From contig JAAZVW010000001.1 in NCBI GenBank assembly GCA_018623135.1, positions 23,024-87,023 on the forward strand: DNA of 64,000 nucleotides. The letters are read 5' to 3'. The position numbers and the translations under genes were made by a program. Shown in pieces: positions 30,165 through 43,735 of this stretch. Below the pieces are notes generated by a model. It was not told the DNA's origin. It was given only the letters and a program-made list of their open reading frames with translations, and made no database searches. This stretch comes from Pseudomonadota bacterium. Lineage in GTDB: Bacteria; Pseudomonadota; Alphaproteobacteria; UBA1280; JAAZVW01. How positions within the stretch are numbered: position 1 is the stretch's first letter; each line of letters starts with the position of its first letter.

Positions 30165-30503
30165 GATAAATCCTTGTGAAGTTTTTTTAGTGAAAGGGAA
30201 TAAGGTTTGAGACTTATATATATGCTTTTTTTTTAGAATTTGTATAGTCTGACTTACAAAAAAATACAAATTAATGCGTGTTTTTTGATTTTTATGCAAA
30301 AATATACTTGCATAGGTTGTAAGTAATATGTATTATCCATCCTAGATTGGCATATACCTCTTTGAGGATATGACCGGGGTTATATAAATAATGAATATCG
30401 CACTTCTGCGATGTTCTTCTTCCATATACGTGTGTGAATGATTTGATGGGCTTGGCCTGCCTATTGTTGACGCATTTTGTTAATAAAAATAAGGAATATA
30501 AAC

Positions 30504-30995
30504 ATGGAATATCAATTTTCTTCTGCAAACCAAGCTTTAGATTGGACTGCGAACGTGCTAAGGAAAAAACTTTTTGCTCAGGTGAGCTCTGCTTATAGGT
30601 TTATTGAAAAAGAAGTGACAGATTTGCCTTCTGAAAGTAAAGAGTATAGCTTTTTACCTAGAAATGCTGAAGATGCTTATGATTTGGCGTTGGATATGGA
30701 TAAGTTATTAAGGTCTTTAGATGAAGAACATCATTTATTGTTGCGCATGAAGCATTGGGGTGATTTTTATACAGTCGATAAAATGAAAAAAGCTTTTGCA
30801 GAACAAGAGCTTTTGAGGCGCAAAGGTATTAGGGTGCGTGTAAGTTATCAGTATTCAAATCGTCAGATGGGTGTTTTGTTGGATTGTTGCCATAAAACTG
30901 TGCAACGTAAGTTGGCAAAAGCTTATCAGCAATTTGAAGAGCTTCTTATAAAAGAGGGGTATATTGCTGAAGTGAGTTATAAAAAATCTGCTTAA
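30504..30995 (+). CDS. putative phage-type late transcriptional regulator with sigma-70 region-4-like C-terminal HTH (RinA/ArpU-like or Q-like role)
   Basis: The C-terminus NRQMGVLLDCCHKTVQRKLAKAYQQFEEL resembles a sigma region 4 HTH. The gene sits directly upstream of the promoter-terminator leader of the terminase operon. The function is inferred from architecture only. Confidence 0.35.
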   Translation: MEYQFSSANQALDWTANVLRKKLFAQVSSAYRFIEKEVTDLPSESKEYSFLPRNAEDAYDLALDMDKLLRSLDEEHHLLLRMKHWGDFYTVDKMKKAFAEQELLRRKGIRVRVSYQYSNRQMGVLLDCCHKTVQRKLAKAYQQFEELLIKEGYIAEVSYKKSA

Positions 30996-31017
30996 ATAAA
31001 AAAAGATTATTTATATC

Positions 31018-31088
31018 TTGACAACTGCCCCAATATTCTGTATAGTAATTAAATAATCAGGAGAGCTAATAACAGCTCTCCTTTTTTT
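31018..31088 (+). promoter_or_regulatory. promoter-plus-terminator leader cassette, copy 2 (candidate late promoter with leader terminator before terS)
   Basis: cTTGACAactgcccca...TGTATAGT at 17 nt spacing. The predicted +1 is followed within about 7 nt by hairpin ggagagctaataacagctctcc plus T7, then the RBS aaggagg and the terS ATG at 31111. Confidence 0.5.
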
Positions 31089-31110
31089 ATGTCTAAAGGA
31101 GGTTGTTAAT

Positions 31111-31512
31111 ATGTTGACTAAAACAGGCTCTAAGATGAATCGTAAAATAAAACAAGAACTTATTACGATTTTAACAAATCCGGAACATGATGGATTATCC
31201 CAAAAAGAAATTGCTGAAAAAGTAGGTGTTTGCCGCGAAACTGTCTATAGATATTTAACGGCAGAGTTTTGGGCTGAGGTGCGCAGATTGCGTTTGGAGG
31301 TGATCTCCAAATCATTAGCTATGGTTGATAGAGCTTTATTTGAAAAAGCAGCAAAAGGCGATGTGCAAGCAGCTAAGCTGATTTACAGTAGGTGGGATAC
31401 AGAAGTAGAGCAAATTGAAAAGTTTCTGAGCTATGAACAGCTGGAACGATTAAATGAAGAGATTGCCGATGTGCAAAAACAAATTACAGAAATTGAAGAT
31501 ACAGCAGCTTGA
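31111..31512 (+). CDS. putative phage terminase small subunit (HTH-containing)
   Basis: HTH LSQKEIAEKVGVCRETVYRYL. 133 aa, immediately upstream of and overlapping the terminase large subunit. Confidence 0.45.
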   Translation: MLTKTGSKMNRKIKQELITILTNPEHDGLSQKEIAEKVGVCRETVYRYLTAEFWAEVRRLRLEVISKSLAMVDRALFEKAAKGDVQAAKLIYSRWDTEVEQIEKFLSYEQLERLNEEIADVQKQITEIEDTAA

Positions 31513-32854
31513 GTTGCTTAGTAAAAAGATAGAATTATATAAACAATACAATATTTTAAGGTACAAACCTTCAAGTAAACAGTTAAGTTACCATGATTTA
31601 GGCGCTCAGTACAAAGAGCGCCTTTTTTTGGCGGGTAACAGGTGTGGTAAAACTTTTTGTGGTGCGCAAGAAATGGCCATTCATTTAACGGGGCTTTATC
31701 CTAAATGGTGGCAAGGGCGTAAATTTGATAAATCTATTAGGGCATGGGCAGGATCGGTAACCGCTGAAAGCACACGTGATATTTTGCAGATTGCTTATTT
31801 AGGTGATGAAGATAGTTTTGGAGCAATACCTAAGGATTTAATTTTAAAGAAAACTTATAAAAAATCTGTTACTGATGCTATTGATTTTGTTTACGTGCGC
31901 CATGTAAGTGGTGGTGTGTCTAAATTGGGTTTTAAATCTTACGATCAGGGGCGTGAAAAATTCCAAGGTACGAGTAGGCATGTGATTCATTTAGACGAGG
32001 AACCTGATTTACGTTTATATGAAGAGTGTTTAATGCGAACGATGGATTGTGATGGGTTAATTATGTTAACGATGACGCCCCTTAAGGGGATGTCGGATGT
32101 CTGTTTACATTATTTGGATGAAGCGGCAAGTGATAAAGTTTATGTGCAGGCAACTTGGGAAGATGCGCCGCATTTGGATAAGTCTGAAATTGAAAAAATG
32201 CGTAAATCATTAAGGCCGCATGAGCGTGAGGCACGCGAAAAAGGGATTCCAAGTTTAGGATCTGGTCGTGTATTCCCGATTAAGGAGGAAGAGGTTCTGA
32301 TAGATAAAGAGCATATTCCTAAAGATTTACCTTTGGCAGCGGGTATGGATTTTGGTTGGCATAACCCTACTGCGATTGTTTGGGGTGCTTATGATAAGGA
32401 TGCGGATGTTCTGTACATTGTAGATAGTTACAAAGCTTCTGAAAAAACGCCAGAGCAGCATGCTTTGGTTCTTAAAGAAAAGGGGTTGTGGATACCTGTT
32501 GCTTGTGACCCAGCAGGACAAGCTGTGAGTCAAAAAGATGGGGAATCCCTAATGCTGGCGTACGAAAAGCAAGGGGTGTATTTGAATAAGGCAAATAACT
32601 CTGTTGAGGCGGGTTTAATGGAGATGCTTGAGCGGATGCGTTCTGGCCGGTTAAAAATTGCGAGCCATTTAACAGCATGGTTTGATGAGTTTAGATTGTA
32701 TCGGCGCAACGAACGAGGCGTGATTGTTAAGGATAATGACCATTTAATGGATGCGAGTCGTTATTTGGTTGTTTCTGGTTTAATGCTTGCGAAGCATAAA
32801 CCCTGCGTAAAAGGCAAAATTATACAAAGAAAGTTAGATTGGGTAACTCTTTAA
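31454..32854 (+). CDS. phage terminase large subunit (start uncertain; alternative TTG at 31514)
   Basis: Walker A-like GNRCGKT and Walker B-like VIHLDEEPD, with a C-terminal nuclease-like region. The protein is 466 aa. Confidence 0.75.
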   Translation: MKRLPMCKNKLQKLKIQQLELLSKKIELYKQYNILRYKPSSKQLSYHDLGAQYKERLFLAGNRCGKTFCGAQEMAIHLTGLYPKWWQGRKFDKSIRAWAGSVTAESTRDILQIAYLGDEDSFGAIPKDLILKKTYKKSVTDAIDFVYVRHVSGGVSKLGFKSYDQGREKFQGTSRHVIHLDEEPDLRLYEECLMRTMDCDGLIMLTMTPLKGMSDVCLHYLDEAASDKVYVQATWEDAPHLDKSEIEKMRKSLRPHEREAREKGIPSLGSGRVFPIKEEEVLIDKEHIPKDLPLAAGMDFGWHNPTAIVWGAYDKDADVLYIVDSYKASEKTPEQHALVLKEKGLWIPVACDPAGQAVSQKDGESLMLAYEKQGVYLNKANNSVEAGLMEMLERMRSGRLKIASHLTAWFDEFRLYRRNERGVIVKDNDHLMDASRYLVVSGLMLAKHKPCVKGKIIQRKLDWVTL

Positions 32855-33186
32855 TGGAAATTAATCAGAAAATAATATCGGTAGGTGCGCAAGCGCCTAT
32901 TTTTTTTGCGCCAGATGTTGATTGTGTTGATGTGAAAATAACAAGTAAAAACACTTTTAAAGCAAATGTTTATATTGGTTATTCTAAACCAACATCTTAC
33001 AAAAAAATAAGAGATAAGGAAGGGCTGGTTTTGCTTTCTGGTCGTGCAATAGATGGAGATTATATTGGCGAAATATTAGCGCAGCCTAAGTACTTATTTA
33101 TGAATGTAAGTGAGATAACGGAACCCATTGAAGTTGTTTTAATAACCCATAAACAAAATGTAGAGCAAAAGGATATGGCTGCATGA
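32839..33186 (+). CDS. hypothetical small phage protein
   Basis: ORF between terL and the portal gene with overlapping stop/start. No recognisable domain. Confidence 0.3.
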   Translation: MGNSLMEINQKIISVGAQAPIFFAPDVDCVDVKITSKNTFKANVYIGYSKPTSYKKIRDKEGLVLLSGRAIDGDYIGEILAQPKYLFMNVSEITEPIEVVLITHKQNVEQKDMAA

Positions 33187-34874
33187 GTACATATATAAAA
33201 GATAAATCGCAAATAGAGCAGGATGTATTAACAAAGGTTAAGGGTTATTTTGAAAAAGCTTATATGAACCCTATTTACCAAAAATGGTATACCTCTGCCC
33301 TTAATAATTGGCGTTTTTACGAAGGTGACCAATGGGCTGAAGAAGAGATTGATGCTTTAAGTGAAAAAGGCCAACCTGCGATAGTGATTAATAAAATTGC
33401 GCCGAAAATTGATAATTTATCGGGTGTTGAAGTTGCTGGACGCACACGGGTTGTTTATAGGTCTCGTTCTGGTGATGTGGAAGAAGAAAAAAAGGCGCGC
33501 CAACTTTCCGATGTGGCGTTGTATGTTGCAGAAAAAGCCGCGCAGGATGTGGAGGTTTCTTTTGCCTTTAAAGCGGGTTTAATTACTGGTATGGGGTGGT
33601 TAGACGTTGGTGTAGAACCCGCGGAAGAAGGCCCACGTATATTTAATACCGCAGAAAATGAACTTGATGTTGTTTGGGATACTCATGCTAAGCAGGATGA
33701 TTACTCTGATGCCCAGTTTGTGTGTAGACAACGTTGGTTGGGTGAGGCTGAGTTTAATAGATTGTTCCCGAAGCATAAAGGCGTTTTTGTAAATGGTGAA
33801 GCTCAGCTTTATGCGGCTGTTGATCAGGGCTTTTTAAGTAAAGAACCTGAGATTGGTTATGTAGATGCTGAGCGAGAGCGTGTACGTGTTGTAGAGGTGC
33901 AGTATAAGCAAATGGCAAAAGAATATAAGGTTACGCTTGAAACAGGTGAGATTTTTGTAACTTTTGATAAAGCAAAAGCGCAGATTACAAATGCTAAGGT
34001 TGAACAGGCTTATAAGCCAAGGGTTTATGTGGCTTATTATGTAGGTGACACTTTACTTTCTCATCAGCCATTAAACTATGCCCACGGCATGTTTACTCTA
34101 GTACCTTTTTATTTTAAGCGAGAACGACAAACAGGCTGCCCTTATGGTTTAGTAAAAGCGGCGATTGATCCGCAACGTGAGTTTAATAAGAGACGCTCTA
34201 AAGCAATGCATTTACTGAATACGGCACAGGTGATTGCAGATGTTGATGCGGTAGATGATCCGCAAGTTTTAGCAAGAGAGGCTGCAAGACCTGACGGTAT
34301 TATACTTAAACGACCAGGTAAAGACTTACGGATTATGCGTAATACTGACCTTGCTGCGAGCCAGGTTTCTGTTATGGAGAAAGCCTCTTACGATATTCAG
34401 GAAGTTATGGGTGTTTTTGATGAAGCTATGGGGCAAAAGACCAATGCGACTTCTGGTGCGGCGATTCGGGTGCGTCAGCAAGCAAGCAATATGAACCAAA
34501 TGTTTGCATACGATGCTTTAAGGCGTACGAAGAAAATTTTAGGTGTGCAGATTATGTCTCATATTCGACAATTTTTTAATAACAACATGATGATGCAAAT
34601 TACAGACAGCTTTTTACCAAAAGATGAAATTAGGCTCACAACCACGGCGGGGGAGCCTTTGACAATGCTGGATGTAAGAACCAGTCATTTTGATGTGCAT
34701 GTGGAAGAGGTGAAGGATGTGCATAGCTCGAGAGAGTTGGAGTTGGATCAACTGGAGGCGTTAAGGCAGGCTGGGATACCTGTACCTGCGGAAATGCTTA
34801 TTGATGCAACAAGCTTAAAAGATAAAGAAAAGCTAAAAAAATATTTAGCTGAACAACAAAATAAGGAGCATTAG
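33183..34874 (+). CDS. putative phage portal protein
   Basis: 563 aa, positioned right after terL and before the scaffold and capsid genes. Acidic composition fits a portal, and the start overlaps the previous stop (atga). Confidence 0.55.
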   Translation: MSTYIKDKSQIEQDVLTKVKGYFEKAYMNPIYQKWYTSALNNWRFYEGDQWAEEEIDALSEKGQPAIVINKIAPKIDNLSGVEVAGRTRVVYRSRSGDVEEEKKARQLSDVALYVAEKAAQDVEVSFAFKAGLITGMGWLDVGVEPAEEGPRIFNTAENELDVVWDTHAKQDDYSDAQFVCRQRWLGEAEFNRLFPKHKGVFVNGEAQLYAAVDQGFLSKEPEIGYVDAERERVRVVEVQYKQMAKEYKVTLETGEIFVTFDKAKAQITNAKVEQAYKPRVYVAYYVGDTLLSHQPLNYAHGMFTLVPFYFKRERQTGCPYGLVKAAIDPQREFNKRRSKAMHLLNTAQVIADVDAVDDPQVLAREAARPDGIILKRPGKDLRIMRNTDLAASQVSVMEKASYDIQEVMGVFDEAMGQKTNATSGAAIRVRQQASNMNQMFAYDALRRTKKILGVQIMSHIRQFFNNNMMMQITDSFLPKDEIRLTTTAGEPLTMLDVRTSHFDVHVEEVKDVHSSRELELDQLEALRQAGIPVPAEMLIDATSLKDKEKLKKYLAEQQNKEH

Positions 34875-34876
34875 GC

Positions 34877-35419
34877 GTGGAAGAGCTTAATAAACCCAAG
34901 ATGATGCAATTAAGGGAATTGTTTTCAGGTAAAAAAACACCTGAGGCAAAAGAAGCCCAGAATATTGAAACTGCACAAGAAACATTAGCAGATGATTATG
35001 CTGATGTACCAGCTGCGTTGATGCAAAAAATTCAGCAGACAGAGCCTTTGGTTCGGCAAGTGCTTGCGCTTGTGCAAGTAGATTATGATGCGCTTATTAA
35101 AATGGATGGGAAATCACCTTATGCGCAAGCAATTAAAGCAAATAAAAATGTGCTTAATGAAGTTGCTAAGGCGGATAATCCTGTGCTTAGGGCGTTGGAA
35201 ATTTCTTTAAAATACAAACCAATTGCGGAATTTAAAGAAAAATATGGCAATACGCCTGATGATATTAAACAAAAAATGAAGCAAGAACTTATGGAAGAAA
35301 TGGCGAGAAAAGAAGTGCCGACACAAAACCTTGCACAGATGGAGTTTAATAAAAAATCTGCTGAGAATGTGAAAAGTACAGAACAAGATGTACAAGAATT
35401 AAACAAATTTTTTAAATAA
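34877..35419 (+). CDS. putative scaffolding protein
   Basis: Acidic, helical/coiled-coil 180 aa protein between the portal and capsid genes. Confidence 0.4.
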   Translation: MEELNKPKMMQLRELFSGKKTPEAKEAQNIETAQETLADDYADVPAALMQKIQQTEPLVRQVLALVQVDYDALIKMDGKSPYAQAIKANKNVLNEVAKADNPVLRALEISLKYKPIAEFKEKYGNTPDDIKQKMKQELMEEMARKEVPTQNLAQMEFNKKSAENVKSTEQDVQELNKFFK

Positions 35420-35445
35420 TAAATTACTTTAAAAGGATTTTATAA

Positions 35446-36480
35446 ATGGTTGCTACTATTGAAAAAACACATGGTGTTTCTGCTCAAAAATGGTCGGAAG
35501 AAGTCTTTTCTGAATATTTAGGGCAAAACCCTTTTTATAACTTTATGGGTACAACATCTAATAATGTGATTCAGGTAAAAGAAGAGCTTACAAAAGCACC
35601 TGGTGATGCGATTACAGTTCAATTACGTGCGCGCTTAACAGGAAATGGTGTTGCTGGTGATGCGAAACTTAAAGGTAATGAAGAAGATTTGATTTTTCAT
35701 GACCAAAAGATTTCGGTAGATACATTGCGTCATGCTGTTATTTTGCGTGGTGAAATGTCTGAAAAACGTGTGGCATTTGATTTGCGTAACCAAGCGCGCG
35801 AGGCTTTGGTGGATTGGTCTAACAATAAGTTACGTCACTCCATTATTTCTGCTTTAACGGATACATCTAAGGGGCGTGATGCTTCTCGTTATATGTATGG
35901 TGCTACGGATGCAAATTTTGATGCAGACCATGCGACAGCACTTGCAAATGTGGATGCAACAGCAGATAAGCTTACAACAAAAATGATTTCTGTTGCTAAG
36001 CGTAAGGCAATGCTTGAGGGTAGCCGAAAAGTACGCCCGTTTACGCATAAAAAAGGTAATAAAACAGAAGAGCTTTATGTGTTATTTGCACATCCTTATG
36101 CTGTGCGTGACTTAATGGAAGACCAGTCTTTTAAAGATGTAAACACGCAAATTCCGACAACTTTTGATGATTCTGTATTGGTGCATGGTCAGCGTTACAA
36201 AGGTATGTGGGACGGCGTTATGATTTTTGAATGCGAAGAAATGCCAGTAGATGCAGCCGCAGGTGCTGCGGGTGTAGATGTTGCGCATAATGTACTTTGT
36301 GGTGCACAGGCTGTTGCCCTTGCTTACGGTAAGCGCACAAACTATAAAGAAGATTCGGATGATTATGGCCATGAAAATGGTTTTGCGATTGACGAAATTC
36401 GTGGTGTAGAGAAGCTTGTGTTTAATGGCATTGACCATGGTGTTGTGAATATGTTTGCGGTTGCTGAATCTGACCAGTAA
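35446..36480 (+). CDS. putative major capsid protein
   Basis: 344 aa, located after the scaffold gene, with RBS aaaggatt. Terminator-like hairpin downstream. Confidence 0.55.
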   Translation: MVATIEKTHGVSAQKWSEEVFSEYLGQNPFYNFMGTTSNNVIQVKEELTKAPGDAITVQLRARLTGNGVAGDAKLKGNEEDLIFHDQKISVDTLRHAVILRGEMSEKRVAFDLRNQAREALVDWSNNKLRHSIISALTDTSKGRDASRYMYGATDANFDADHATALANVDATADKLTTKMISVAKRKAMLEGSRKVRPFTHKKGNKTEELYVLFAHPYAVRDLMEDQSFKDVNTQIPTTFDDSVLVHGQRYKGMWDGVMIFECEEMPVDAAAGAAGVDVAHNVLCGAQAVALAYGKRTNYKEDSDDYGHENGFAIDEIRGVEKLVFNGIDHGVVNMFAVAESDQ

Positions 36481-36499
36481 AAATATAAAGCTAAAACGA

Positions 36500-36535
36500 A
36501 AATGGGGCACTCAAAAAAATTGGGTGCCCTTTTTA
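36500..36535 (+). terminator. possible intrinsic terminator after the capsid gene
   Basis: ggggcac ... gtgccc stem followed by ttttt. The loop is rather large. Confidence 0.35.
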
Positions 36536-36547
36536 TGGAGTTTTACA

Positions 36548-37162: not shown

Positions 37163-37590
37163 GCCTTTTTAGATCTGGTATTTTTGGCTTCTTTAGAAGG
37201 TTTTTTCAGAAATTTATTTAAGTTTTCAACGCCGATAGACATTTCTGAAACTAAAGAGTTACGCTGGTTTGTCATTTCTGATTTAAAGCAGCTTTCAAGG
37301 TCTTTAAGTGTCTCTAATCTGATTTGGTCGTTAATTTCAGGTAAGAGATAAATAAAAGAACTTTGTTTTTCAAATTCATTTTTTACAAGAGGATGGTTTT
37401 GGAAGTGTTGCTCAAAATTAGCGCAAGTGCCCATGCCTTTAATGTAATCCATACTTAATCCATAAGGGTTTGAATTGCATTCAATAATAAAATAAACACC
37501 ACCACACTTAGGTAGAGTAAAATTACCTTTAGGATTAAAAACACTAAATAAATGCTTTTTTTGTTTACCAGATACCGAAATGGTGGCCAT
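37159..37590 (-). CDS. opposite-strand moron ORF, possibly GIY-YIG/T5orf172-like
   Basis: RBS agggag before the ATG at 37590. The motif GGVYFII...YIKGMGTCANFEQHFQNH weakly resembles the GIY-(10 aa)-YIG...R..H core. This is the only reverse-strand gene inside the structural module. Confidence 0.3.
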   Translation of the reverse strand: MATISVSGKQKKHLFSVFNPKGNFTLPKCGGVYFIIECNSNPYGLSMDYIKGMGTCANFEQHFQNHPLVKNEFEKQSSFIYLLPEINDQIRLETLKDLESCFKSEMTNQRNSLVSEMSIGVENLNKFLKKPSKEAKNTRSKKA

Positions 37591-37704
37591 TGGCTTAACT
37601 CCCTTTAACTCGCTTATAAGTAAAATTATGATAAATACACTCATTAAGTGCAATTACTAATTGGAGTTAGCTAATAAGAGTAATAAATATGAAGAAGGAT
37701 AATT

Positions 37705-39465
37705 ATGAGTCGTATTGAAGAATTTAAGTTACCTTTTCCACCTAAGTTAATGTCTACAGATAAGAGTCCTGCAACAATGGGTGCAAGTTATGCACGTGAG
37801 ATTGTAAATATGTACATAGACCAAGATGGAGCAGGTTCTAAGCGAGGCGGATTTTCTTGCATTGTAAGAGATACGATAAACGATGATATTGTGAAGCTTG
37901 TTGAATTTGTACCTACAACGGGAGATAAACAGCTTTTGGCTTTTTGCGCATCGGGCGATGTTTTGAAAAAGGTGAATGATGCGTGGGAACTTGTTGACGC
38001 ACCCTTTAGCGCAATAACAAATTTAAGTAGTGTTGAATTTGGTAACAAACTTATTTTAGCTAATGGTGTAGACCCTGTAAAAAGTTGGGATGGAACATCT
38101 TTTAACGATTTAGAACAGGAGATATATGACTTTAGTGACAGTTTGAGTATTGAAAATACAACGATCATTAAAGTAAACAGTGACATAAGCTTGTATAAAC
38201 CTGGTACGAAATTAAAACTGATGTTGGAAGATGAAAATACGGCTGAAGTAACAGTTGTATTAACAGATGTGCTAAGTGCCACTGAAGATGATAATGGCTT
38301 TATAGATGTTGAATTAACAGATGCTGTGGCTGTGGGGATACTAAAAAATGTATCGGTTTATTTAAAACCACCCGCCTTTAGAAGTTTGTATGTATGCCAA
38401 GACCGTTTATGGGGTATGGGGGAAGGTGCTTTTAGCACGACAGAATATAGTAATTTAGCGACCCGAGGGGTCGTTTTTTTTACGCAAGCAGGCACAAACC
38501 CTAATGATTGGTATACGGATACGGGGGCTCTTTCTTACATTGATTTAACAATGAAGATGCCGATGAATGACGAATTGGTTTCTATGGCAGAAAAAGATGG
38601 TCTGATTCTGTTTTTGTTTAAAAAGAATATGCAGATTTGGAAAGGTTATAACCCTTCGGAACAGGGGAGCTTTGGTTGGTATAAAACATTGCCTGTTGGG
38701 GTGGTGCATCCGGAGCTTATTCTTTCTTTACCAAATGATTTGGCTTTTTTTACATCGTCGGGCGCGCGGAGTTTAAGTCGTATTTTACAAACAGAACAAT
38801 TAGATGTAACTGATTTTGCTAGAGATATAGACCCGAGCATACTCGCTGCTATAGAACATATTAAACAAAACCCTGATGCTAAGGTGGGTCGGTTTACTTA
38901 TGAAAAAGAAGGTTGGTATGCCTTTAAGCTTGGGCAAGATGTTTTTGTGTTTCAGACCAACGGTAGTTCTTATGGTTGGAGCAAATTTACGGGGCTATTT
39001 GCAGAAGCAACGGCTTTTTTAAACACACGAGATGCAGGGTTATATATTGCCAAGGGTAGGTGTTTGTACCAATACGAACCCAATACATACAGTGATGATG
39101 ATGTGCCCATAAAAACAAAATGGTGGACGCCTTGGTTACGTATTAATACTAAGAATAAAAGGTGGGCGAATAAATATGTATCGGTTATTACGGAGCAAGG
39201 TGTTTATATGCCGATAGAGGTGAAACGCTATAAAGACTACGATAGTTTTTCTTACCATAAATTAGAAACGGCGCAGATGTCTTCCCCGAGTTATATGGAT
39301 ACGGCTTATTGGGATACAAATACCTGGCAGGGTTTTAATGCGCAGGCCGCTAAAAAAGAAGATAAATTTATTTGCCAGATTTTTTCTTACGCAGTGGAGA
39401 CGGAATCAATTAAAGGACCATTTAAAGTACATGGTTTGACAATACAGGGGATTATAGAAAGATGA
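37705..39465 (+). CDS. putative tail protein (tail tubular/tailspike-like)
   Basis: 586 aa, located between the adaptor-like gene and the tail-fibre gene. No tape-measure-like gene is present in the module. Confidence 0.4.
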   Translation: MSRIEEFKLPFPPKLMSTDKSPATMGASYAREIVNMYIDQDGAGSKRGGFSCIVRDTINDDIVKLVEFVPTTGDKQLLAFCASGDVLKKVNDAWELVDAPFSAITNLSSVEFGNKLILANGVDPVKSWDGTSFNDLEQEIYDFSDSLSIENTTIIKVNSDISLYKPGTKLKLMLEDENTAEVTVVLTDVLSATEDDNGFIDVELTDAVAVGILKNVSVYLKPPAFRSLYVCQDRLWGMGEGAFSTTEYSNLATRGVVFFTQAGTNPNDWYTDTGALSYIDLTMKMPMNDELVSMAEKDGLILFLFKKNMQIWKGYNPSEQGSFGWYKTLPVGVVHPELILSLPNDLAFFTSSGARSLSRILQTEQLDVTDFARDIDPSILAAIEHIKQNPDAKVGRFTYEKEGWYAFKLGQDVFVFQTNGSSYGWSKFTGLFAEATAFLNTRDAGLYIAKGRCLYQYEPNTYSDDDVPIKTKWWTPWLRINTKNKRWANKYVSVITEQGVYMPIEVKRYKDYDSFSYHKLETAQMSSPSYMDTAYWDTNTWQGFNAQAAKKEDKFICQIFSYAVETESIKGPFKVHGLTIQGIIER

Positions 39466-40727
39466 GTAAGAAGTTTCAACGTCCGTTAGAAGTATATGAG
39501 GGCGACTCTAACCTTTTATATAGAGATAAATACCAAGTAGATGCTGTGGCTGAGCCACCAGTACCCATTTCTAGCGAGAAGATTGATGGCGACTTTAATT
39601 ACTTAATAGACGTAGTTAATGAGATAAATGCAGCAGCTGGAAGTTATAACAGTATTGCAGAGCGATTAGATAAAGCGCTAAATGCAGACGGTACACTTAA
39701 AAGCAGTATTGAAACGACTTTAGAGGAGTGGGTTACTTTATTACCTGAAGAGATAGAGTACGTAGCTGCCAATAGGTTTAATATACAGGGGGATAAAACA
39801 AACCTTTTAACGATAGGTAGGGTTTTAAAATCTGCATTGTTAACCTTAGAGCGTACAGCTGTAATTATTGAGAGTTTATATAATAGTTCTTCTGATAAGA
39901 CAGAGATTTTATTATCGGCTGATATTTGCTTAAACGATACTGACGTAAAATATTTATATAGCTCATATACACCTAGTGCTGTGCCAATTTGTTCAGATAG
40001 ACTGTATGCCTATACAGACACGACAGAAGCCTCGGTTGATTTTAAAAATGATACTGCGGCTGCTAAGGTTGCTTTAAATGGTAATAGTCTTTCTGTTGTG
40101 TTTAACATGGGAGATTTACTTAACCCAAATTGGCAAAGTGCTTTAGAAATTACCAATACAGGTTTGGATGGTGCTGGCATTAAGGATGCTTCTATTGATG
40201 CGCAAAAACTCGCAAGTGGTGTTTTAGGTACTGTGGCCTCTAAAAATACAGGTGTGGAAGTAGGGGAAGTTCCTTTATTGCAGGCGGGTGGTGTGCTTGA
40301 TACAGCTGTGTTGCCTACTATGGGTGCACCTGTTGGTTCTGTGGGTTTGTTTGTGACAGAATCATCGGTACCTAGTAATTACCTTATTTTAAATGGTGCG
40401 GTGTTTGATGAAACTTTATACCCAGAGCTGTACCAACTTTTAGGAGATTCTAACCAATTACCTGATTGGCGTGGTTATTTTGTGAGAATGTCGGATATGG
40501 GGCGCGGTGTTGATACTGGCCGTGTTACGGGCAGTTTTCAGGAGGATGCTCTTAAAAGCCATAGTCATGAAGTTTACGCTTATGCCAATGGTTCTGGTTT
40601 TTCTAATATTTCTAGCTATGGTTCTAACGGTACGGCAGGAGCTGTTGTAAAAGATACAGAAGCAGTTGGTGATGCAGAGACAAGACCTAAAAACGTTGCT
40701 GTTGTTTATGCAATTCGTGCTGAATAA
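39462..40727 (+). CDS. phage tail fibre protein with C-terminal tail-collar domain
   Basis: NGAVFDETLYPELYQLLGD...WRGYFVRMSDMGRGVDTGR matches the phage tail collar pattern (L.cnG...s...Yp.Lf..lG...lPDlRGrf). Confidence 0.6.
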   Translation: MSKKFQRPLEVYEGDSNLLYRDKYQVDAVAEPPVPISSEKIDGDFNYLIDVVNEINAAAGSYNSIAERLDKALNADGTLKSSIETTLEEWVTLLPEEIEYVAANRFNIQGDKTNLLTIGRVLKSALLTLERTAVIIESLYNSSSDKTEILLSADICLNDTDVKYLYSSYTPSAVPICSDRLYAYTDTTEASVDFKNDTAAAKVALNGNSLSVVFNMGDLLNPNWQSALEITNTGLDGAGIKDASIDAQKLASGVLGTVASKNTGVEVGEVPLLQAGGVLDTAVLPTMGAPVGSVGLFVTESSVPSNYLILNGAVFDETLYPELYQLLGDSNQLPDWRGYFVRMSDMGRGVDTGRVTGSFQEDALKSHSHEVYAYANGSGFSNISSYGSNGTAGAVVKDTEAVGDAETRPKNVAVVYAIRAE

Positions 40728-40733
40728 GGAATA

Positions 40734-41150
40734 TTGAAGATGATAAAATTTGTAGATGTTTATGCTTATAATGAGCAAGGCTTGTATGTAGGTTGCGTTT
40801 CGGCTCAAAAAGATAAAAAAGGGCAAGTAATGTTACCTGCAGGTGCGACAGAAAAAGAGCCTCTCGTATCAATTGAGGGCTGTGATGTTGTTTTTGACGG
40901 TAATAACTGGGTTTATGTGCAAAAAGAAGCTGAGAGCCCAGAGGAGCCTATTCGTGATGAGGGTGATGTGTCTTATAAAGAAAAAAGGGCAGCAGCCTAT
41001 CCTTTTGTTGGTGATCAGCTAGATGCCATTTATAAAGGCTTAAAAGAGTTAAGTAAAACAGTTGCTATGCCAAATGATGTTGAGAGTTGGTTTGCTCAGA
41101 TTGAAGCTGTTAAAGCCATGTTCCCTAAAGATGAAGGGAGTAGTGCATGA
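40734..41150 (+). CDS. putative tail fibre assembly protein
   Basis: 138 aa, immediately after the tail-fibre gene. The N-terminus VDVYAYNEQGLYVGCVSAQ is Tfa-like. Confidence 0.4.
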   Translation: MKMIKFVDVYAYNEQGLYVGCVSAQKDKKGQVMLPAGATEKEPLVSIEGCDVVFDGNNWVYVQKEAESPEEPIRDEGDVSYKEKRAAAYPFVGDQLDAIYKGLKELSKTVAMPNDVESWFAQIEAVKAMFPKDEGSSA

Positions 41151-41581
41151 TTAAGAAAATGCCATTTCACCAACTGCCAAGGTTGTATTTTTTAATGAAA
41201 GAAGTTTCGTTCCCGAATGTGGAGCAAGGCTTGTGGCGTTGTCTATGGGATTTACTTTATGTTGATGTGTATGCTGTTTATAAAGAAGGTCGCTTAATTG
41301 CGGCCTTTATTTATGGGCAAGATGGTATGAACGGTGCTTTTTTAGATTTAGTGGCCGCGCAGAATCAGCAAAAAATATGGCTAAATAAAACAGTACTTAA
41401 AAGCATTTTAGAGCAGGCACAAAAATATTCTGTTTTATGGGTAGAACCTAAAAATAGTCATGCATTAAGACTGTGTTTGAAGGCAGGTTTTAAAATGGTG
41501 GAAGGTTGTTTTACCAACCCCTTACTTGTAACAACACCAAAGCAATTACAAACCAGATTTAATAAAAATAATAAGCTTTAA
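41147..41581 (+). CDS. possible GNAT-family acetyltransferase-like protein
   Basis: The C-terminal ...ALRLCLKAGFKMVEG weakly resembles GNAT motif B. Confidence 0.25.
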   Translation: MIKKMPFHQLPRLYFLMKEVSFPNVEQGLWRCLWDLLYVDVYAVYKEGRLIAAFIYGQDGMNGAFLDLVAAQNQQKIWLNKTVLKSILEQAQKYSVLWVEPKNSHALRLCLKAGFKMVEGCFTNPLLVTTPKQLQTRFNKNNKL

Positions 41582-41605
41582 TAATATATATAGGGAGAAT
41601 ATGTT

Positions 41606-42319
41606 ATGGGATCAGTTTTTGGAGGATCTAAACCTTCTGCACCACCTACACCGCCGCCAAGTCGTTACCGAGATGAGGTTGCAGGTGTAGAGCAAGTGCC
41701 CGTTAAAAACCCAGATGGTAGTATTACATATATTACACGCCAAATTCCGCTTACAGAAGAACAGCAAAAAGAAAAAGAGCAATATGACAAAATTATGTCG
41801 GAAGCTTTGAGTGAAATAGAAAAACTTTCTTCGAGTGATTATGAATTTGATGAGGCGACTAAAGCTCAGTTAAAGGCTTATAAAGAAGAGCAATTGAGTC
41901 AGCTCAGTTCTATACAGGGGCAACGTGAACGTTCTGAAGAAGAGGCGTTGGCCGCAAGGGGATTGAGTCAATCAAGTATTGCAGATTCTTTAAGGCGTCA
42001 GCGCAATTTAGATGAATCTAATATTAAACGCTCTATTGACCGTGAGACCGAAATGATTGGGCAAGATTTAAGGTCTCAGCAATTAAATTATCAGCAAAAT
42101 CTTTATAGCTTAGCGGCTCAGGAAGAGCAAATGGATGCTGTAAATGCACAAAAAAGCCTGGCGAATGGCTTTAGTGCTACGGGAATGCTTAATAAGTACC
42201 AGCAAGATTCTATTGTTGATGCATATAAGGCTCAGCCAAGTGCTGGTGGGTTTGTACAACGCACTTTTGATGCTGTTGCTGAAAACCCTTTGTTTGATAT
42301 ATTTGATGGGATTTTTTAA
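41606..42319 (+). CDS. hypothetical phage protein (Pro-rich N-terminus, coiled coil)
   Basis: ORF with RBS gggaga. No domain recognised. Confidence 0.3.
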   Translation: MGSVFGGSKPSAPPTPPPSRYRDEVAGVEQVPVKNPDGSITYITRQIPLTEEQQKEKEQYDKIMSEALSEIEKLSSSDYEFDEATKAQLKAYKEEQLSQLSSIQGQRERSEEEALAARGLSQSSIADSLRRQRNLDESNIKRSIDRETEMIGQDLRSQQLNYQQNLYSLAAQEEQMDAVNAQKSLANGFSATGMLNKYQQDSIVDAYKAQPSAGGFVQRTFDAVAENPLFDIFDGIF

Positions 42320-42630
42320 TGGATATTGCAACATGGAAAAATGAGGTTTTTATGCCTTGGATGAAATCTGTTGAGGCGAGAAGTGAAGCACAAAAAAAAC
42401 AAGTGCAAAGTCTTAAGCTTTATAAAGGACGCATTATAGAGGTTATAGGGTTGCTTTTGGATGGTAAAAACGAGTTGGCAGTTAAATTATGGAATGCCAT
42501 TACTGATTTGCCAACATTGGAAACCGCTGAATATATGACGTCGCAAAAATTGTTTAAGCTTAAGTTTGTGAATGGGCAAGTGCAAAGCATTGCGCAAGAA
42601 CAGCTTTTTAAAGAGCTGAATAATTTGTAA
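42319..42630 (+). CDS. hypothetical phage protein
   Basis: 103 aa ORF whose start overlaps the previous stop (taatg). Confidence 0.3.
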   Translation: MDIATWKNEVFMPWMKSVEARSEAQKKQVQSLKLYKGRIIEVIGLLLDGKNELAVKLWNAITDLPTLETAEYMTSQKLFKLKFVNGQVQSIAQEQLFKELNNL

Positions 42631-42644
42631 AGGACTGAAATATT

Positions 42645-42833
42645 ATGGACAGTCATCAACAAATGTTACACCAAGAAATAAAAGAAATTCGTAAAGATAT
42701 GAGATCTTTACGAGAAGAAATAACAAAATATAAAGGTTTTGTTGGTGGTGTTTTTTGGTGTTTTGCAGCTTTTATAACGGCAGCTAATTTTGCTTTTACC
42801 TATATTAAACAATGGGTTTTAGGGGTTCATTAA
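42645..42833 (+). CDS. holin-like small membrane protein
   Basis: 62 aa. It has a charged/coiled N-terminus and one C-terminal TM (FVGGVFWCFAAFITAANFAFTYI). It is translationally coupled (taATG) to the endolysin gene. Confidence 0.4.
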   Translation: MDSHQQMLHQEIKEIRKDMRSLREEITKYKGFVGGVFWCFAAFITAANFAFTYIKQWVLGVH

Positions 42834-43207
42834 TGAGAAAAATACAAGAGCACATTATCCATTGTTCGGATAGCGAAATAGGGGATGCGACAACAATTGA
42901 TAAGTGGCATAAAAAGCGTGGTTTTAGAAAAATTGGCTACCACTTTGTGATTTTGCCAGATGGTAGGGTGGAAATAGGCAGAGATGTATCTGAAATTGGT
43001 GCGCATTGTAAAGGGTTTAATAGATACTCTGTAGGGACTTGTTTGATTGGTGTTAATAGGTTTACGCAAGCACAGTTTGAATCTTTAAAAAAAGTGCATC
43101 AGTTTTTGCAGTCTATCTGGCCTTCTATCCACATTAAAAACCATTATGAACACAATAGCCGTAAAAGTTGCCCTAATTTTGATGTTCACCTTAAAATAAA
43201 AGGATAA
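42833..43207 (+). CDS. endolysin, N-acetylmuramoyl-L-alanine amidase (Amidase_2/T7-lysozyme/PGRP type)
   Basis: IIHCSDS, GYHFVILPDG, GAHCKGFNRYSVG and SCPNFD match the zinc amidase motifs. Confidence 0.8.
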   Translation: MRKIQEHIIHCSDSEIGDATTIDKWHKKRGFRKIGYHFVILPDGRVEIGRDVSEIGAHCKGFNRYSVGTCLIGVNRFTQAQFESLKKVHQFLQSIWPSIHIKNHYEHNSRKSCPNFDVHLKIKG

Positions 43208-43210
43208 AAA

Positions 43211-43489
43211 ATGAAAATAAAACATCTATTGCCTTTGCTTAACCAGATTTTGGGCTTTTTAGTGCAAAAGGGAAAGTTTAATACAGCTTTTGCAACAACA
43301 ACGGTTGCAAGTTCCGTTGTGTATTCGGATGAACTTATTGCTTTTGTAAAAAATACATCTGAGCTTTTTTTTGATACGGTAACAAGCCAAATGATTGCTC
43401 AGAGTTTAACAACAGGCGGTGTGGCTACTATTGTTGCAGGTGTTTTTGCTACAATAAATTTATTTATGAACCTTAAGAAAAAACAATAG
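43211..43489 (+). CDS. small membrane protein (possible second holin/antiholin or spanin-like)
   Basis: 92 aa with a C-terminal TM (GGVATIVAGVFATINLFMNL). It follows the endolysin gene. Confidence 0.3.
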   Translation: MKIKHLLPLLNQILGFLVQKGKFNTAFATTTVASSVVYSDELIAFVKNTSELFFDTVTSQMIAQSLTTGGVATIVAGVFATINLFMNLKKKQ

Positions 43490-43597
43490 CTTGGCAGGTG
43501 TGTTGTAATTTTTTATAAATAAATTGCGCTTTTTTGTAAAAAAAGACTAGACAAGAGGGCGTTAAATGGGGTAAAAACATCCTCGCATTAGCTTTGC

Positions 43598-43687
43598 GGA
43601 TGAGTGGCAGAGTGGTTGAATGCACCGGTCTTGAAAACCGGCATGTCTGAGAGGGCATCGGGGGTTCGAATCCCTCCTCATCCGCCA
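43598..43687 (+). tRNA. tRNA-Ser (anticodon TGA)
   Basis: Acceptor ggatgag/ctcatcc, anticodon loop ctTGAaa, long variable arm, T-arm ggggg-ttcgaat-ccctc, G73, CCA. Length 90 nt. Confidence 0.85.
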
Positions 43688-43695
43688 CTAATGTC

Positions 43696-43735
43696 AAACA
43701 ACGCCCCAAATTATTTTGGGGCGTTGTTTTTTTGT
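43696..43735 (+). terminator. strong intrinsic terminator after tRNA-Ser
   Basis: aaacaacgccccaaattattttggggcgttgtttttttg. Confidence 0.75.

What the first reader, a model, noticed from the sequence alone, without database searches (positions are those of the whole stretch)
30165..43500. Compact podovirus-like head, tail and lysis module with no integrase, replication or repressor genes
From about 30.5 kb to 43.5 kb there is a co-directional block: terS-like, terL, portal-like, scaffold-like, capsid-like, adaptor-like and a 586 aa tail protein. Then come a tail fibre with collar domain, a tail-fibre assembly protein, a GNAT-like gene, two unknowns, a holin-like gene, an Amidase_2 endolysin and a small TM protein. 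No tape measure, tube or sheath gene is present, so the tail is short. No integrase, excisionase, CI/Cro, DNA polymerase or primase is present anywhere between the flanking MCP and tRNA-Ser. About 13 kb is too small for an autonomous podovirus. The options are a decayed prophage, a satellite-like element, or a domesticated particle-producing (GTA-like) cluster retaining its own lysis cassette.
Basis: partly seen in the sequence, partly recalled or inferred. Interest (0 to 1): 0.7.

Follow-up and report, generated by a model that had tools for sequence, protein, structure and literature searches.

The report
Domesticated short-tailed phage particle locus
This 13 kb block is not a dying prophage: it is a phage head, short-tail and lysis gene set kept intact at the same chromosomal spot across many uncultured Alphaproteobacteria, apparently a new gene-transfer-agent-like element switched on by its own antiterminator.

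Summary
Window 30.5-43.5 kb encodes a regulator, TerS, TerL, P22-type portal, scaffold, capsid, SU10-type adaptor, a gp12-like nozzle, a collar-domain fibre, a GNAT-like protein, small unknowns, a holin-like protein, an Amidase_2 endolysin and a membrane protein. It has no integrase, repressor, replication, tube, sheath or tape-measure gene.

The same gene order occurs in about 20 species-level MAGs, on contigs up to 1.3 Mb, always among housekeeping genes. In many of them the same host neighbours flank it: YbjQ upstream and tRNA-Ser(UGA) downstream. Element GC follows host GC from 0.36 to 0.61 (r=0.99). dN/dS is 0-0.23, and dS equals that of the flanking host genes. IMG/VR holds no complete phage with close relatives.

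The first ORF (30504-30995) has a sigma-region-4 fold and resembles the antiterminators Q21 and AlpA. It is followed by a consensus sigma-70 promoter, a -10-like element and a strong terminator. Further sense-strand terminators sit at conserved positions inside the operon. This matches a Q-type antitermination circuit, as reported for the Caulobacter and Bartonella gene transfer agents.

Best reading: a vertically inherited, domesticated podovirus-derived particle locus (GTA-like viriform). Host-DNA packaging and transfer remain untested.

The parts
29331..29675 (+). YbjQ-family host gene. It is the conserved left neighbour of the element, not part of it.
   Evidence: Pfam YbjQ_1, 9e-32. It lies directly upstream of the regulator or the element in L002, L006, L007, L011, L016, L025, L027, L030, L062 and L063.
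30166..30503 (+). Control region of the regulator gene. It holds a putative promoter (TTGCAT 30308-30313, 17 nt spacer, TATTAT 30331-30336) and a 5' UTR of about 165 nt.
   Evidence: Read from the sequence. CTTGCATAGGTTGT and a -10 element are shared with L025 and L030. No Rfam family matches. Function is inferred only.
30504..30995 (+). 163 aa regulator: a sigma-region-4-like HTH with an N-terminal helical domain. Candidate Q21/AlpA-type processive antiterminator.
31018..31046 (+). Late-operon promoter, TTGACA-17-TATAGT. The spacer carries a conserved motif (ctGCCCCAAtatt), a candidate regulator-binding element.
   Evidence: It is the best plus-strand promoter match in the region, 11/12. The same TTGAC(A/T/C)-17-(-10) arrangement follows the regulator gene or precedes terS in L002, L006, L007, L010, L013, L016, L020, L021, L025, L026, L027 and L030.
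31050..31057 (+). A -10-like element (TAAATAAT) at about +1 to +6. Candidate sigma-dependent pause site for loading the antiterminator.
   Evidence: Read from the sequence. ATAATC is conserved in L025 and L030, and ACAATC in L002. The role is inferred by analogy with lambda PR' and BaGTA.
31059..31088 (+). Leader intrinsic terminator T0: a 9 bp stem followed by T7, lying between the promoter and terS.
   Evidence: Found by the terminator scan. Folding energy is -14.9 kcal/mol, z -4.07. A leader terminator is present in all loci examined upstream of terS.
31111..31512 (+). Small terminase subunit (N-terminal HTH).
   Evidence: Pfam HTH_Tnp_1_2 1e-11, with weak Terminase_5 and DUF5681 hits. It sits immediately before TerL. 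Identity across loci is 29-75%.
31454..32854 (+). Large terminase subunit (headful-type Terminase_6). It contains an internal terminator-like hairpin at 31600-31629.
   Evidence: Pfam Terminase_6N 5e-25 and 6C 1e-12. It is 43% identical to the Megaira phage terminase. The hairpin is conserved in L029 and L030.
32839..33186 (+). Small conserved protein of unknown function between TerL and portal. Terminator T2 (32880-32908) lies at its 5' end.
   Evidence: A gene of 94-115 aa occupies the same position in all loci. The T2 hairpin plus T7 is present in 13 loci, with compensatory changes in 4 of 7 pairs.
33183..34874 (+). Portal protein.
   Evidence: Pfam P22_portal 1.9e-104. 275 homologues were found, of which 117 have at least 48% identity, mostly on chromosomal contigs of MAGs.
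34877..35419 (+). Scaffold-like protein, assigned by position.
   Evidence: It lies between portal and capsid. It is acidic and helical by eye. Only a weak hit to phrog_15452. Identity across loci is 35-49%.
35446..36480 (+). Major capsid protein, followed by terminator T3 (36504-36535).
   Evidence: Pfam Phage_capsid_3 7e-45. Identity across loci is 70-79%. dN/dS is 0.055. T3 is positionally conserved in 11 loci.
36455..37162 (+). Head-to-tail adaptor. The true start is probably near 36548.
   Evidence: Pfam SU10_adaptor 6e-11, matching residues 32-221.
37159..37593 (-). Conserved opposite-strand gene of unknown function (about 144 aa). It looks like a moron inserted at the adaptor-nozzle junction.
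   Evidence: Homologues occur at the same junction in L029, L030, L006, L007 and L027. dN/dS is 0.09. No Pfam hit.
37705..39465 (+). Nozzle (tail tubular protein B-like, 586 aa). It contains hairpin T4 (38457-38475) followed by a T8 run.
   Evidence: tblastn hit to 'tail tubular protein gp12' of Megaira phage OP381185, 27% identity, 3e-26. It follows the adaptor in all loci. The T run is T9 in L030-L032, which splits the gene there.
39462..40727 (+). Tail fibre with a collar domain. The N-terminus is conserved and the C-terminus is variable.
   Evidence: Pfam Collar 9.5e-7. Only the first 90-140 residues align across most loci.
40734..41150 (+). Small tail-associated protein. The 'assembly' role is unverified.
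   Evidence: PHROG hits to unknown-function families and weak hits to tail-fibre families.
41147..41581 (+). GNAT-like protein. It contains the conserved hairpin T5 (41287-41306).
   Evidence: The family profile hits only GNAT acetyltransferases in the PDB, best E 0.0017. Acetyltransferase genes sit at the same place in phages KLEP18-1 and MAnkyphage. T5 is conserved in 8 loci.
41606..42319 (+). 237 aa protein with a conserved MGS-F-polyPro N-terminus. Candidate small internal (ejection) protein, by inference.
   Evidence: Conserved in all loci at 40-63% identity. In the related phages, larger structural proteins occupy this position.
42319..42630 (+). 103 aa protein of unknown function.
   Evidence: Weakly conserved in most loci.
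42645..42833 (+). Holin-like protein of 62 aa with one transmembrane segment.
   Evidence: It sits before the endolysin. One hydrophobic segment by eye. Conserved in loci.
42812..43207 (+). Endolysin (N-acetylmuramoyl-L-alanine amidase).
   Evidence: Pfam Amidase_2 4.7e-12. Identity across loci is 51-56%.
43211..43489 (+). 92 aa membrane protein, the last gene of the operon. It may be a lysis accessory protein.
   Evidence: A hydrophobic C-terminal segment by eye. A gene of 92-130 aa sits at the same place in L001, L027 and L030.
43598..43729 (+). tRNA-Ser(UGA) and its terminator. This is the conserved right boundary.
   Evidence: Identified by ARAGORN and Rfam. The same tRNA lies directly downstream of the element in L002, L006, L007 and L027.

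Best explanation
The block is a domesticated, vertically inherited remnant of a short-tailed (podovirus-type) phage. It retains only the late operon: DNA packaging, head, short tail and lysis genes, plus the late-gene regulator.

Proposed mechanism:
1. A host signal raises expression of the 163 aa regulator (30504-30995).
2. The regulator loads onto RNA polymerase at the constitutive-looking sigma-70 promoter directly behind its own gene (31018-31046). It makes the polymerase resistant to the leader terminator (31059-31088) and to at least four further sense-strand terminators inside the operon.
3. The resulting 12.4 kb transcript yields terminase, portal, scaffold, capsid, adaptor, nozzle and fibres.
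4. The element cannot excise or replicate, so the headful-type terminase fills heads with chromosomal DNA.
5. The holin-amidase cassette lyses the producer cell and releases the particles.

Functionally this is a gene-transfer-agent-like viriform.

Shown here: gene content; absence of mobility and replication genes; conservation of gene order and locus; purifying selection; GC adaptation to each host; and the regulator-promoter-terminator architecture.

Inferred: antitermination activity, particle formation, packaging of host DNA, and delivery to recipient cells.
For: Gene content.

No integrase, repressor or replication genes, in the window or in the annotated neighbourhoods of relatives.

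The same gene order occurs in about 20 species-level MAGs, on contigs up to 1.0-1.35 Mb.

Orthologous locus: YbjQ lies upstream in 10 loci. The wider host synteny DsbD-GGDEF-PDT-YbjQ-regulator is also conserved. tRNA-Ser(UGA) lies downstream in 5 loci.

Element GC equals flank GC from 0.36 to 0.61, r=0.99, n=12. Pairwise YbjQ identity correlates with TerL identity (r=0.84) and portal identity (r=0.91).

dN/dS is 0-0.23 in element genes, with dS 0.02-0.24. The flanking host genes have dS 0.08-0.18.

IMG/VR holds only two short fragments with at least 49% portal identity. Real phage contigs reach 22-24%. Known phages stay below 36%.

The internal terminators are positionally conserved and carry compensatory changes.

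Antitermination of this kind is documented for CcGTA (PMC11150451) and BaGTA (bioRxiv 10.1101/2024.11.20.624540).
Against: There is no experimental or metagenomic evidence here that particles are made, that they carry host DNA, or that DNA reaches recipients.

Head capacity is unknown. Phages with the same capsid family have 36-62 kb genomes. The head may therefore hold the whole 13 kb locus, unlike classical GTAs.

TerS keeps an HTH domain, so packaging could be site-specific rather than random.

The co-divergence test rests on one short linked host gene. No whole-genome phylogeny was possible.

Some relatives show frame breaks: nozzle T9 in L030-32, and several genes in L018 and L019. Loss may therefore be tolerated in some lineages.

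Confidence: 0.62

Rival explanations
1. Same domesticated element, but packaging is not random. The terminase starts at a pac site in or near terS. Because the element cannot excise, it fills successive heads unidirectionally with the downstream chromosome (tRNA-Ser, hybrid kinase and beyond). That would make it a fixed lateral-transduction platform.
For: TerS retains an N-terminal HTH DNA-binding domain. TerL is of the headful Terminase_6 type. There are no excision or replication genes. The locus is fixed next to the same host genes in many lineages.
Against: No pac site was identified. Without in situ replication, only one or a few packaging series per cell are possible. This reading differs from the best explanation only in what DNA is packaged.
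Confidence: 0.25
2. A defective-phage particle kept for a use other than gene transfer. Possibilities are a PBSX-like killer particle, or a regulated self-lysis device that releases DNA or public goods. In that case the heads would be incidental.
For: The operon ends with its own holin-amidase cassette. The regulator resembles AlpA, which controls a self-lysis pathway in Pseudomonas. The fibre C-termini vary between lineages, as expected for surface recognition.
Against: Terminase, portal and capsid are the most strongly conserved genes: capsid identity is 70-79% and dN/dS is 0.04-0.07. That is hard to explain if DNA-filled heads were dispensable. A lysis device would not need 10 kb of head and tail genes.
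Confidence: 0.15
3. A phage satellite or mobilisable island that relies on a helper phage for induction, replication or spread.
For: It is small (13 kb) and encodes its own capsid and terminase, like capsid-forming satellites. It lies next to a tRNA gene.
Against: It has no integrase, no replication or primase gene, and no att repeats. It has a complete adaptor, nozzle and fibre set, so no helper tail is needed. It occupies the same chromosomal position, with host-matched GC, across hosts of 36-61% GC. It lies 5' of the tRNA, not at the tRNA's 3' end.
Confidence: 0.06
4. An inert, decaying cryptic prophage remnant.
For: Integration, lysogeny and replication modules are absent. A few relatives carry frameshifts.
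Against: All genes in the window are intact. dN/dS is 0-0.23 at the same dS as host genes. Gene order is kept across lineages whose portal identity has dropped to about 50% and whose GC differs by 25 points. The regulatory architecture is conserved too.
Confidence: 0.03

Closest known systems
RcGTA / CcGTA (alphaproteobacterial type I gene transfer agents, Rhodogtaviriformidae)
   Same: A head-tail cluster of about 13-15 kb in an alphaproteobacterial chromosome. There is no integrase or replication module. It is inherited vertically and under purifying selection. Expression depends on reading through terminators inside the cluster, using a protein with a sigma-region-4-like HTH (GafZ/GafA; PMC11150451; PMC9662315).
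   Different: The structural genes differ and so does the morphology. Here there is a P22-type portal, Phage_capsid_3, an SU10-type adaptor and a gp12-like nozzle. There is no tape measure, tube or other long-tail gene. The lysis cassette is inside the operon. No sequence relationship to the RcGTA-type regulators was detected. The host clade is different and uncultured.
BaGTA of Bartonella (type II), with the Q21-like antiterminator BrrG
   Same: It has the Q-type circuit: an antiterminator with structural similarity to Q21, a promoter with a binding site, an attenuating leader, a -10-like element, and a capsid operon with lysis genes.
   Different: BaGTA is a chimera of two phages and has a run-off replication module that amplifies a specific genomic region. 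No replication module exists here. In the window the regulator lies directly upstream of its target promoter rather than at a second locus. The structural proteins are unrelated as far as was tested.
Lambdoid late-gene control (Q / PR' / tR', especially phage 21 Q) and Pseudomonas AlpA
   Different: There is no detectable sequence similarity to Q or AlpA families. The leader is very short, with the terminator stem starting at about +7. Lysis genes come last in the operon instead of first. There is no early or lysogeny region at all.
Complete podoviruses with related modules: Megaira polyxenophila phage MAnkyphage_25.80 (38 kb) and Paracoccus phage vB_PmaP_KLEP18-1 (39 kb)
   Same: The module order is the same: terminase, portal, scaffold, capsid, adaptor, nozzle, fibre, acetyltransferase-like gene. 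Identities to the Megaira phage are TerL 43%, nozzle 27%, portal 23% and capsid 24%. Capsid identity to KLEP18-1 is 31%.
   Different: Those phages carry replication initiator or helicase genes, recombination genes, regulators and, in the Megaira phage, a resolvase. After the acetyltransferase they also have three structural proteins of 275-876 aa. The element lacks all of these and has only 237 aa and 103 aa proteins at that place.
PBSX-type defective prophages / Dd1 of Desulfovibrio
   Same: They are chromosomally fixed, non-replicating phage-like loci that package host DNA and lyse the producer. From my own recollection, not checked here, Dd1 particles are short-tailed.
   Different: PBSX is a contractile-tailed element of about 28 kb in Firmicutes, with its own repressor. 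The genes for Dd1 have not been defined. Neither shares the gene set or the host clade seen here.

Membership tests
Gene transfer agent (viriform), as defined by Kogay et al. 2022 (PMC9662315) | Uses caudoviricete-derived proteins to form tailed particles | tested here: met
   Terminase, P22-type portal, Phage_capsid_3, SU10 adaptor, gp12-like nozzle and collar fibre are all present. Particle formation itself has not been observed.
Gene transfer agent (viriform), as defined by Kogay et al. 2022 | [quoted passage not shown] | not testable with these tools
   This needs sequencing of particle DNA. There is only indirect support: a headful-type TerL and no excision or replication genes.
Gene transfer agent (viriform), as defined by Kogay et al. 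2022 | Genome fully endogenized in the host genome, often across several loci | tested here: met
   There is no integrase and no att repeats. The flanks are housekeeping genes on contigs up to 1.3 Mb. Element GC equals host GC. In L010, L013, L020, L021 and L026 the regulator gene is not next to the cluster. The regulator stays beside YbjQ in L062 and L063.
Gene transfer agent (viriform), as defined by Kogay et al. 2022 | Own genome cannot be fully packaged because the head is too small | not testable with these tools
   Head size is unknown. Phages with the same capsid family have 36-62 kb genomes, so this criterion may not be met.
Gene transfer agent (viriform), as defined by Kogay et al. 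2022 | Mostly vertical inheritance and co-diversification with hosts | tested here: met
   The same flanks occur in many lineages. YbjQ identity correlates with TerL and portal identity, r 0.84-0.91, and GC tracks the host with r 0.99. dS equals that of flanking genes. Limitation: only one linked host gene was used, and no genome tree was available.
Gene transfer agent (viriform), as defined by Kogay et al. 2022 | Packaged DNA is delivered to other cells | not testable with these tools
   This requires transfer assays.
Q-type processive antitermination circuit (four components as listed in bioRxiv 10.1101/2024.11.20.624540) | A Q-like antiterminator protein | tested here: inconclusive
Q-type processive antitermination circuit | A strong promoter with a factor-binding element, next to the antiterminator gene | tested here: met
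   TTGACA-17-TATAGT begins 23 nt after the regulator's stop codon. It is conserved in 12 further loci, with a shared spacer motif. Binding itself is untested.
Q-type processive antitermination circuit | A terminator between the promoter and the late genes | tested here: met
   The hairpin at 31059-31088 folds at -14.9 kcal/mol, z -4.07. It is present in all loci examined. Further conserved internal terminators show covariation.
Q-type processive antitermination circuit | A -10-like pause element just downstream of the promoter | tested here: inconclusive
   TAAATAAT at 31050-31057 is shared as ATAATC or ACAATC with L025, L030 and L002. It is not evident in the marine clade (L006, L007, L027).
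Phage satellite (PICI / capsid-forming PICI) | Integrase and att sites, its own replication module, and reliance on helper-phage tails | tested here: not met
   No integrase, replication or primase family was found and there are no flanking repeats. It has its own adaptor, nozzle and fibre genes. It occupies a fixed orthologous locus.
Intact temperate P22-like or other podoviral prophage | Integration, immunity and replication modules contiguous with the late region | tested here: not met
   These modules are absent from the window's 64 kb, at least within the 23.6-49 kb stretch that was scanned. They are also absent from the 10 kb flanks of relatives.
RcGTA-like cluster (Rhodogtaviriformidae) | A long non-contractile tail set (tape measure, tube, distal tail proteins) | tested here: not met
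   No such families are detected. The tail is of the adaptor-plus-nozzle type. Direct comparison with RcGTA proteins was not run.

The most novel reading that the evidence does not exclude
This would be a further, independently domesticated type of gene transfer agent, and the first short-tailed one with a defined gene set. It is spread through a large uncultured alphaproteobacterial radiation covering marine, freshwater and groundwater MAGs.

It would be controlled by a new family of Q21-like antiterminators that can act in cis or from a separate locus.

It lacks the large internal (ejection) proteins of its phage relatives. It may therefore deliver DNA only to the periplasm and rely on the recipient's uptake machinery, as RcGTA does.
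Probability: 0.4. Interest if true: 0.85.

Novelty: new variant of a known kind. Interest (0 to 1): 0.78.

Why it matters
Only a handful of independently domesticated gene transfer agents are known, and those with defined genes are long-tailed. A podovirus-derived one, conserved across many uncultured Alphaproteobacteria, would change two things. It would show that phage domestication into particle-producing host loci is more frequent and morphologically broader than thought. It would also add a sizeable unrecognised route of gene exchange, and of virus-like particles in viromes, in aquatic microbial communities.

The conserved regulator-promoter-terminator switch is compact. It gives a directly testable third example of antitermination as the control logic of such elements. 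The proposal that antitermination is general for alphaproteobacterial GTAs could thus be tested with a simple reporter.

Practically, prophage finders will call these loci 'incomplete prophages'. Recognising the family avoids that mis-annotation.

Tried and rejected
- att or direct repeats around the block, including copies of the tRNA-Ser 3' end: only chance-level matches.
- Rfam search of 25.5-44.5 kb: only the three tRNAs passed. Leader-family hits at 29.66-29.77 kb fall below threshold and are just the YbjQ terminator.
- Exact look-up of the window's own portal: not on record, so the source genome could not be named. Cluster look-up gave no names.
- Host placement with SerRS: only uncultured MAGs at 60-63% identity, and cultured genera at about 57%.
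- BLAST failed to link the regulator to its positional counterparts. A full HMM search was needed.
- BFVD fold search of the regulator: nothing significant. The afdb50 library was not available.
- Nozzle: no PDB sequence or profile hit, and no profile match to the KLEP18-1 'nozzle'.
- The PHROG label 'amidase' for phrog_5107 was not adopted, because the only annotated phage homologue is a gp12-type tail tubular protein.
- GNAT-like protein: no pairwise similarity to the phage acetyltransferases. The single-sequence AF2 model was unusable, pLDDT 37.7. Only the family profile gave GNAT hits.
- CtrA and LexA box patterns upstream of the regulator: none found.
- The overall terminator count is enriched in the window (24 against 11.1±3.0) and in L002, but not in L027. 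The argument therefore rests on positional conservation, not on counts.
- Literature searches found no description of this element.

Full report
**1. Observation**

The window is chromosomal DNA. It carries type II secretion genes, TonB receptors, chemotaxis receptors, transketolase, SerRS and SecDF. Its GC is flat at 0.34-0.43, with no dip or rise across 30-44 kb.

Between a minus-strand HAD-like gene (29730-30165) and tRNA-Ser(UGA) (43598-43687) lies a nearly co-directional block. Pfam assigns these genes:
- TerS-like HTH protein, 31111-31512
- TerL, 31454-32854
- P22-type portal, 33183-34874 (E 2e-104)
- Phage_capsid_3 capsid, 35446-36480
- SU10-type adaptor, 36455-37162
- collar-domain fibre, 39462-40727
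- Amidase_2 endolysin, 42812-43207

The 586 aa protein after the adaptor matches the 'tail tubular protein gp12' of a Megaira phage. It is therefore the nozzle of a short tail. A profile of the 41147-41581 family hits only GNAT acetyltransferases in the PDB, best E 0.0017.

No integrase, repressor, replication, tape-measure, tube or sheath family is detected anywhere in the block or its immediate flanks. No att-like repeats bracket it.
- The first ORF is a regulator, not TerS.
- One conserved gene (37159-37593) is on the opposite strand.
- The 'fibre assembly', 'scaffold' and 'holin' labels are positional only.
- Coordinate 30165 belongs to a host gene.

**2. The same element in many genomes**

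The portal has 275 homologues. The 117 best are 48-100% identical. They come mostly from MAGs labelled Alphaproteobacteria, on contigs up to 1.35 Mb.

A scan of GTDB species representatives returned 21 loci with at least 50% portal identity. tblastn shows the same order in all of them: terS, terL, small ORF, portal, scaffold, capsid, adaptor, nozzle, fibre, GNAT-like, 237 aa protein, 103 aa protein, holin-like, amidase.

Pfam-annotated neighbourhoods of six relatives hold only housekeeping genes: gyrA, queA, tgt, nrdR, clpP, pheA, dsbD. None has an integrase.

The host context is conserved as well.
- YbjQ lies immediately upstream in the window and in nine other loci.
- In several clades the wider order DsbD-GGDEF-PDT-small ORF-(ClpP)-YbjQ-regulator is kept.
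- tRNA-Ser(UGA) lies immediately downstream in the window, L002, L006, L007 and L027.
- Every contig carrying the window's exact YbjQ also carries the element.
- A second group (L010, L013, L021) has the cluster behind acpS-lepB-rnc-era-recO, identified by eye.

**3. Evidence for long residence and selection**

Element GC equals flank GC in twelve loci spanning 0.36-0.61 (r=0.99).

Pairwise identity of the host gene YbjQ correlates with that of TerL (r=0.84) and portal (r=0.91). The same groups appear in both.

Against a sister strain (L030), element genes have dS 0.02-0.24 and dN/dS 0-0.23. Flanking host genes have dS 0.08-0.18 and dN/dS 0.05-0.12. Against a more distant relative (L029), dN/dS is 0.06 for the capsid and 0.42 for the scaffold.

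The capsid is the most conserved protein, at 70-79% identity where the portal is about 55%.

IMG/VR contains only two short fragments of this clade. Genuine phage contigs reach just 22-24% portal identity. Known phages stay below 36% for portal and capsid.

The closest complete phages are 38-39 kb podoviruses of Alphaproteobacteria: Megaira MAnkyphage_25.80 and Paracoccus KLEP18-1. They have the same module order but also carry replication, recombination and regulatory genes.

These data exclude an assembly break, a recently acquired prophage and random decay.

**4. The switch**

The ORF at 30504-30995 has no family hit. A full HMM search finds only 59 representatives in 1.84 billion proteins. 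Its counterparts sit at the same position in other loci.

A PDB profile search also gives weak sigma-4 hits. A region-4-like fold in Q21 is reported in the literature.

The following signals come directly after the gene:
- its stop codon at 30993-30995
- TTGACA-17-TATAGT at 31018-31046, the best plus-strand promoter match in the region
- a -10-like TAAATAAT at 31050-31057
- a 9 bp hairpin plus T7 at 31059-31088 (-14.9 kcal/mol, z -4.07)
- a ribosome-binding site and terS

The promoter-plus-leader-terminator arrangement recurs in every locus examined. That includes loci where the regulator gene is not adjacent. The promoter spacers share a motif (GCCCCAA / GCCACAA / TCCGAAA).

Further sense-strand terminator-like hairpins occupy conserved positions: just after terL (T2), after the capsid gene (T3), inside the nozzle gene (T4), and inside the GNAT-like gene (T5). 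T2 aligns in 13 loci, with an invariant T7 run and compensatory changes in 4 of 7 pairs.

These are the four components of a Q-type circuit as listed for BaGTA. CcGTA likewise uses a sigma-like HTH protein, GafZ, to read through terminators in its 14 kb cluster.

I infer that the 163 aa protein is a processive antiterminator and the master switch. Its activity is not shown.

**5. How it most likely works**

Steps inferred from the anatomy:
1. Expression of the regulator rises. The signal is unknown. No CtrA or LexA boxes were found. A 5' UTR of about 165 nt precedes the gene.
2. RNA polymerase is modified at the constitutive promoter.
3. The 12.4 kb operon is transcribed.
4. Proheads assemble.
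5. The Terminase_6-type enzyme packages chromosomal DNA by the headful, because the locus can neither excise nor replicate.
6. Adaptor, nozzle and fibres attach.
7. The holin-amidase cassette lyses the cell.

The related phages carry three structural proteins of 275-876 aa after the acetyltransferase-like gene. The element has only 237 aa and 103 aa proteins there in all loci. This suggests that a full trans-envelope ejection apparatus has been lost. That part is speculative.

**6. Comparison and membership**

I used the six-point GTA definition of Kogay et al..
- Met on sequence evidence: phage-derived particle proteins, full endogenization, and vertical inheritance.
- Not testable here: random host-DNA content, a head too small for the locus, and delivery to recipients. 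The head-size criterion may fail, since relatives of the capsid package 36-62 kb.

The element is therefore GTA-like rather than a proven GTA.

It is not a member of the RcGTA-like family, because the long-tail genes are absent. It does not match BaGTA either, since it has no replication module. It is not a satellite and not an intact prophage.

Rival readings are PBSX-like killer or lysis particles, and a pac-driven lateral-transduction platform. These differ mainly in what the particles do, not in what the locus is.

**7. Verdict**

This is a real and well-delimited feature. It is a previously undescribed, vertically inherited, podovirus-derived particle locus with a Q-type switch, widespread in uncultured Alphaproteobacteria. 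Within the searched library, no paper describes it.

Novelty: a new variant of a known kind (GTA-like viriforms). Interest is high, limited by the lack of functional evidence and of cultured hosts.

Noticed in passing
window 38457-38483; L030 15276-15302, L031, L032: Inside the nozzle gene, a hairpin is followed by a T8 run. In three assemblies of a sister strain the run is T9, which splits the gene into 266 and 302 aa ORFs. This could be phase variation, transcriptional slippage or incipient pseudogenisation.
   Followed up: partly
window 37159-37593 (-); L006 7550-7948, L007 14070-14468, L027 14076-14474, L029 5772-6179: A conserved opposite-strand gene (about 132-144 aa) sits at the adaptor-nozzle junction, with dN/dS 0.09. 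By eye it has a GIY-YIG-like 'GGVYFI...YIKG' motif, but no family hit. Other clades carry different minus-strand membrane ORFs at the same junction, so this is a moron hotspot.
   Followed up: partly
L010 7190-7275, L021 7665-7745, L013 7575-7665, L026 7840-7905, L020 7800-7885: These loci lack the regulator gene next to terS. They keep the TTGACA-17-TAGAAG-type promoter and leader terminator, which implies a regulator acting in trans from another locus. In L062 and L063 the regulator gene remains beside YbjQ.
   Followed up: partly
window 31024-31040 and equivalent promoter spacers in L002, L006, L007, L010, L013, L021, L025, L026: A motif is shared between the -35 and -10 elements (GCCCCAA / GCCACAA / GCCACGG / TCCGAAA followed by A/T-rich bases). 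It is a candidate binding element for the regulator. It occupies the same place as the Q, AlpA and GafZ binding elements.
   Followed up: no
L018 2087-6153; L019 4092-5818; L015 1-5057: Some relatives show several frame breaks (portal, capsid, adaptor, nozzle) or a rearranged gene order. These may reflect real decay in those lineages, or indel and assembly errors.
   Followed up: no
L062 5996-6217 (-); L011 5927-6772; L016 5645-7025: In some high-GC lineages, extra genes are inserted between the regulator and terS. One of them is an Xre-type HTH protein. It could be a lineage-specific repressor of the switch.
   Followed up: no
window 30337-30503; L006 540-702, L007 7010-7146, L027 7075-7233: A long 5' UTR precedes the regulator gene. 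Within the marine clade it has conserved blocks (GGTACGTATC, GAGCGTAACC and a hairpin). No Rfam match. It may be a post-transcriptional control element.
   Followed up: no
window 29730-30165 (-): A small HAD-like phosphatase gene (DLDGLL motif by eye, no Pfam hit) is wedged between YbjQ and the regulator. It occurs only in the window's own clade (window, L025, L030).
   Followed up: no
L036 and L037 (IMG/VR fragments of 9-11 kb): This is a sister clade with the same terL-portal-capsid-adaptor-nozzle-fibre order, but only 31-33% portal and 52-54% TerL identity. The contigs are too short to tell whether they are phages or further domesticated elements.
   Followed up: no
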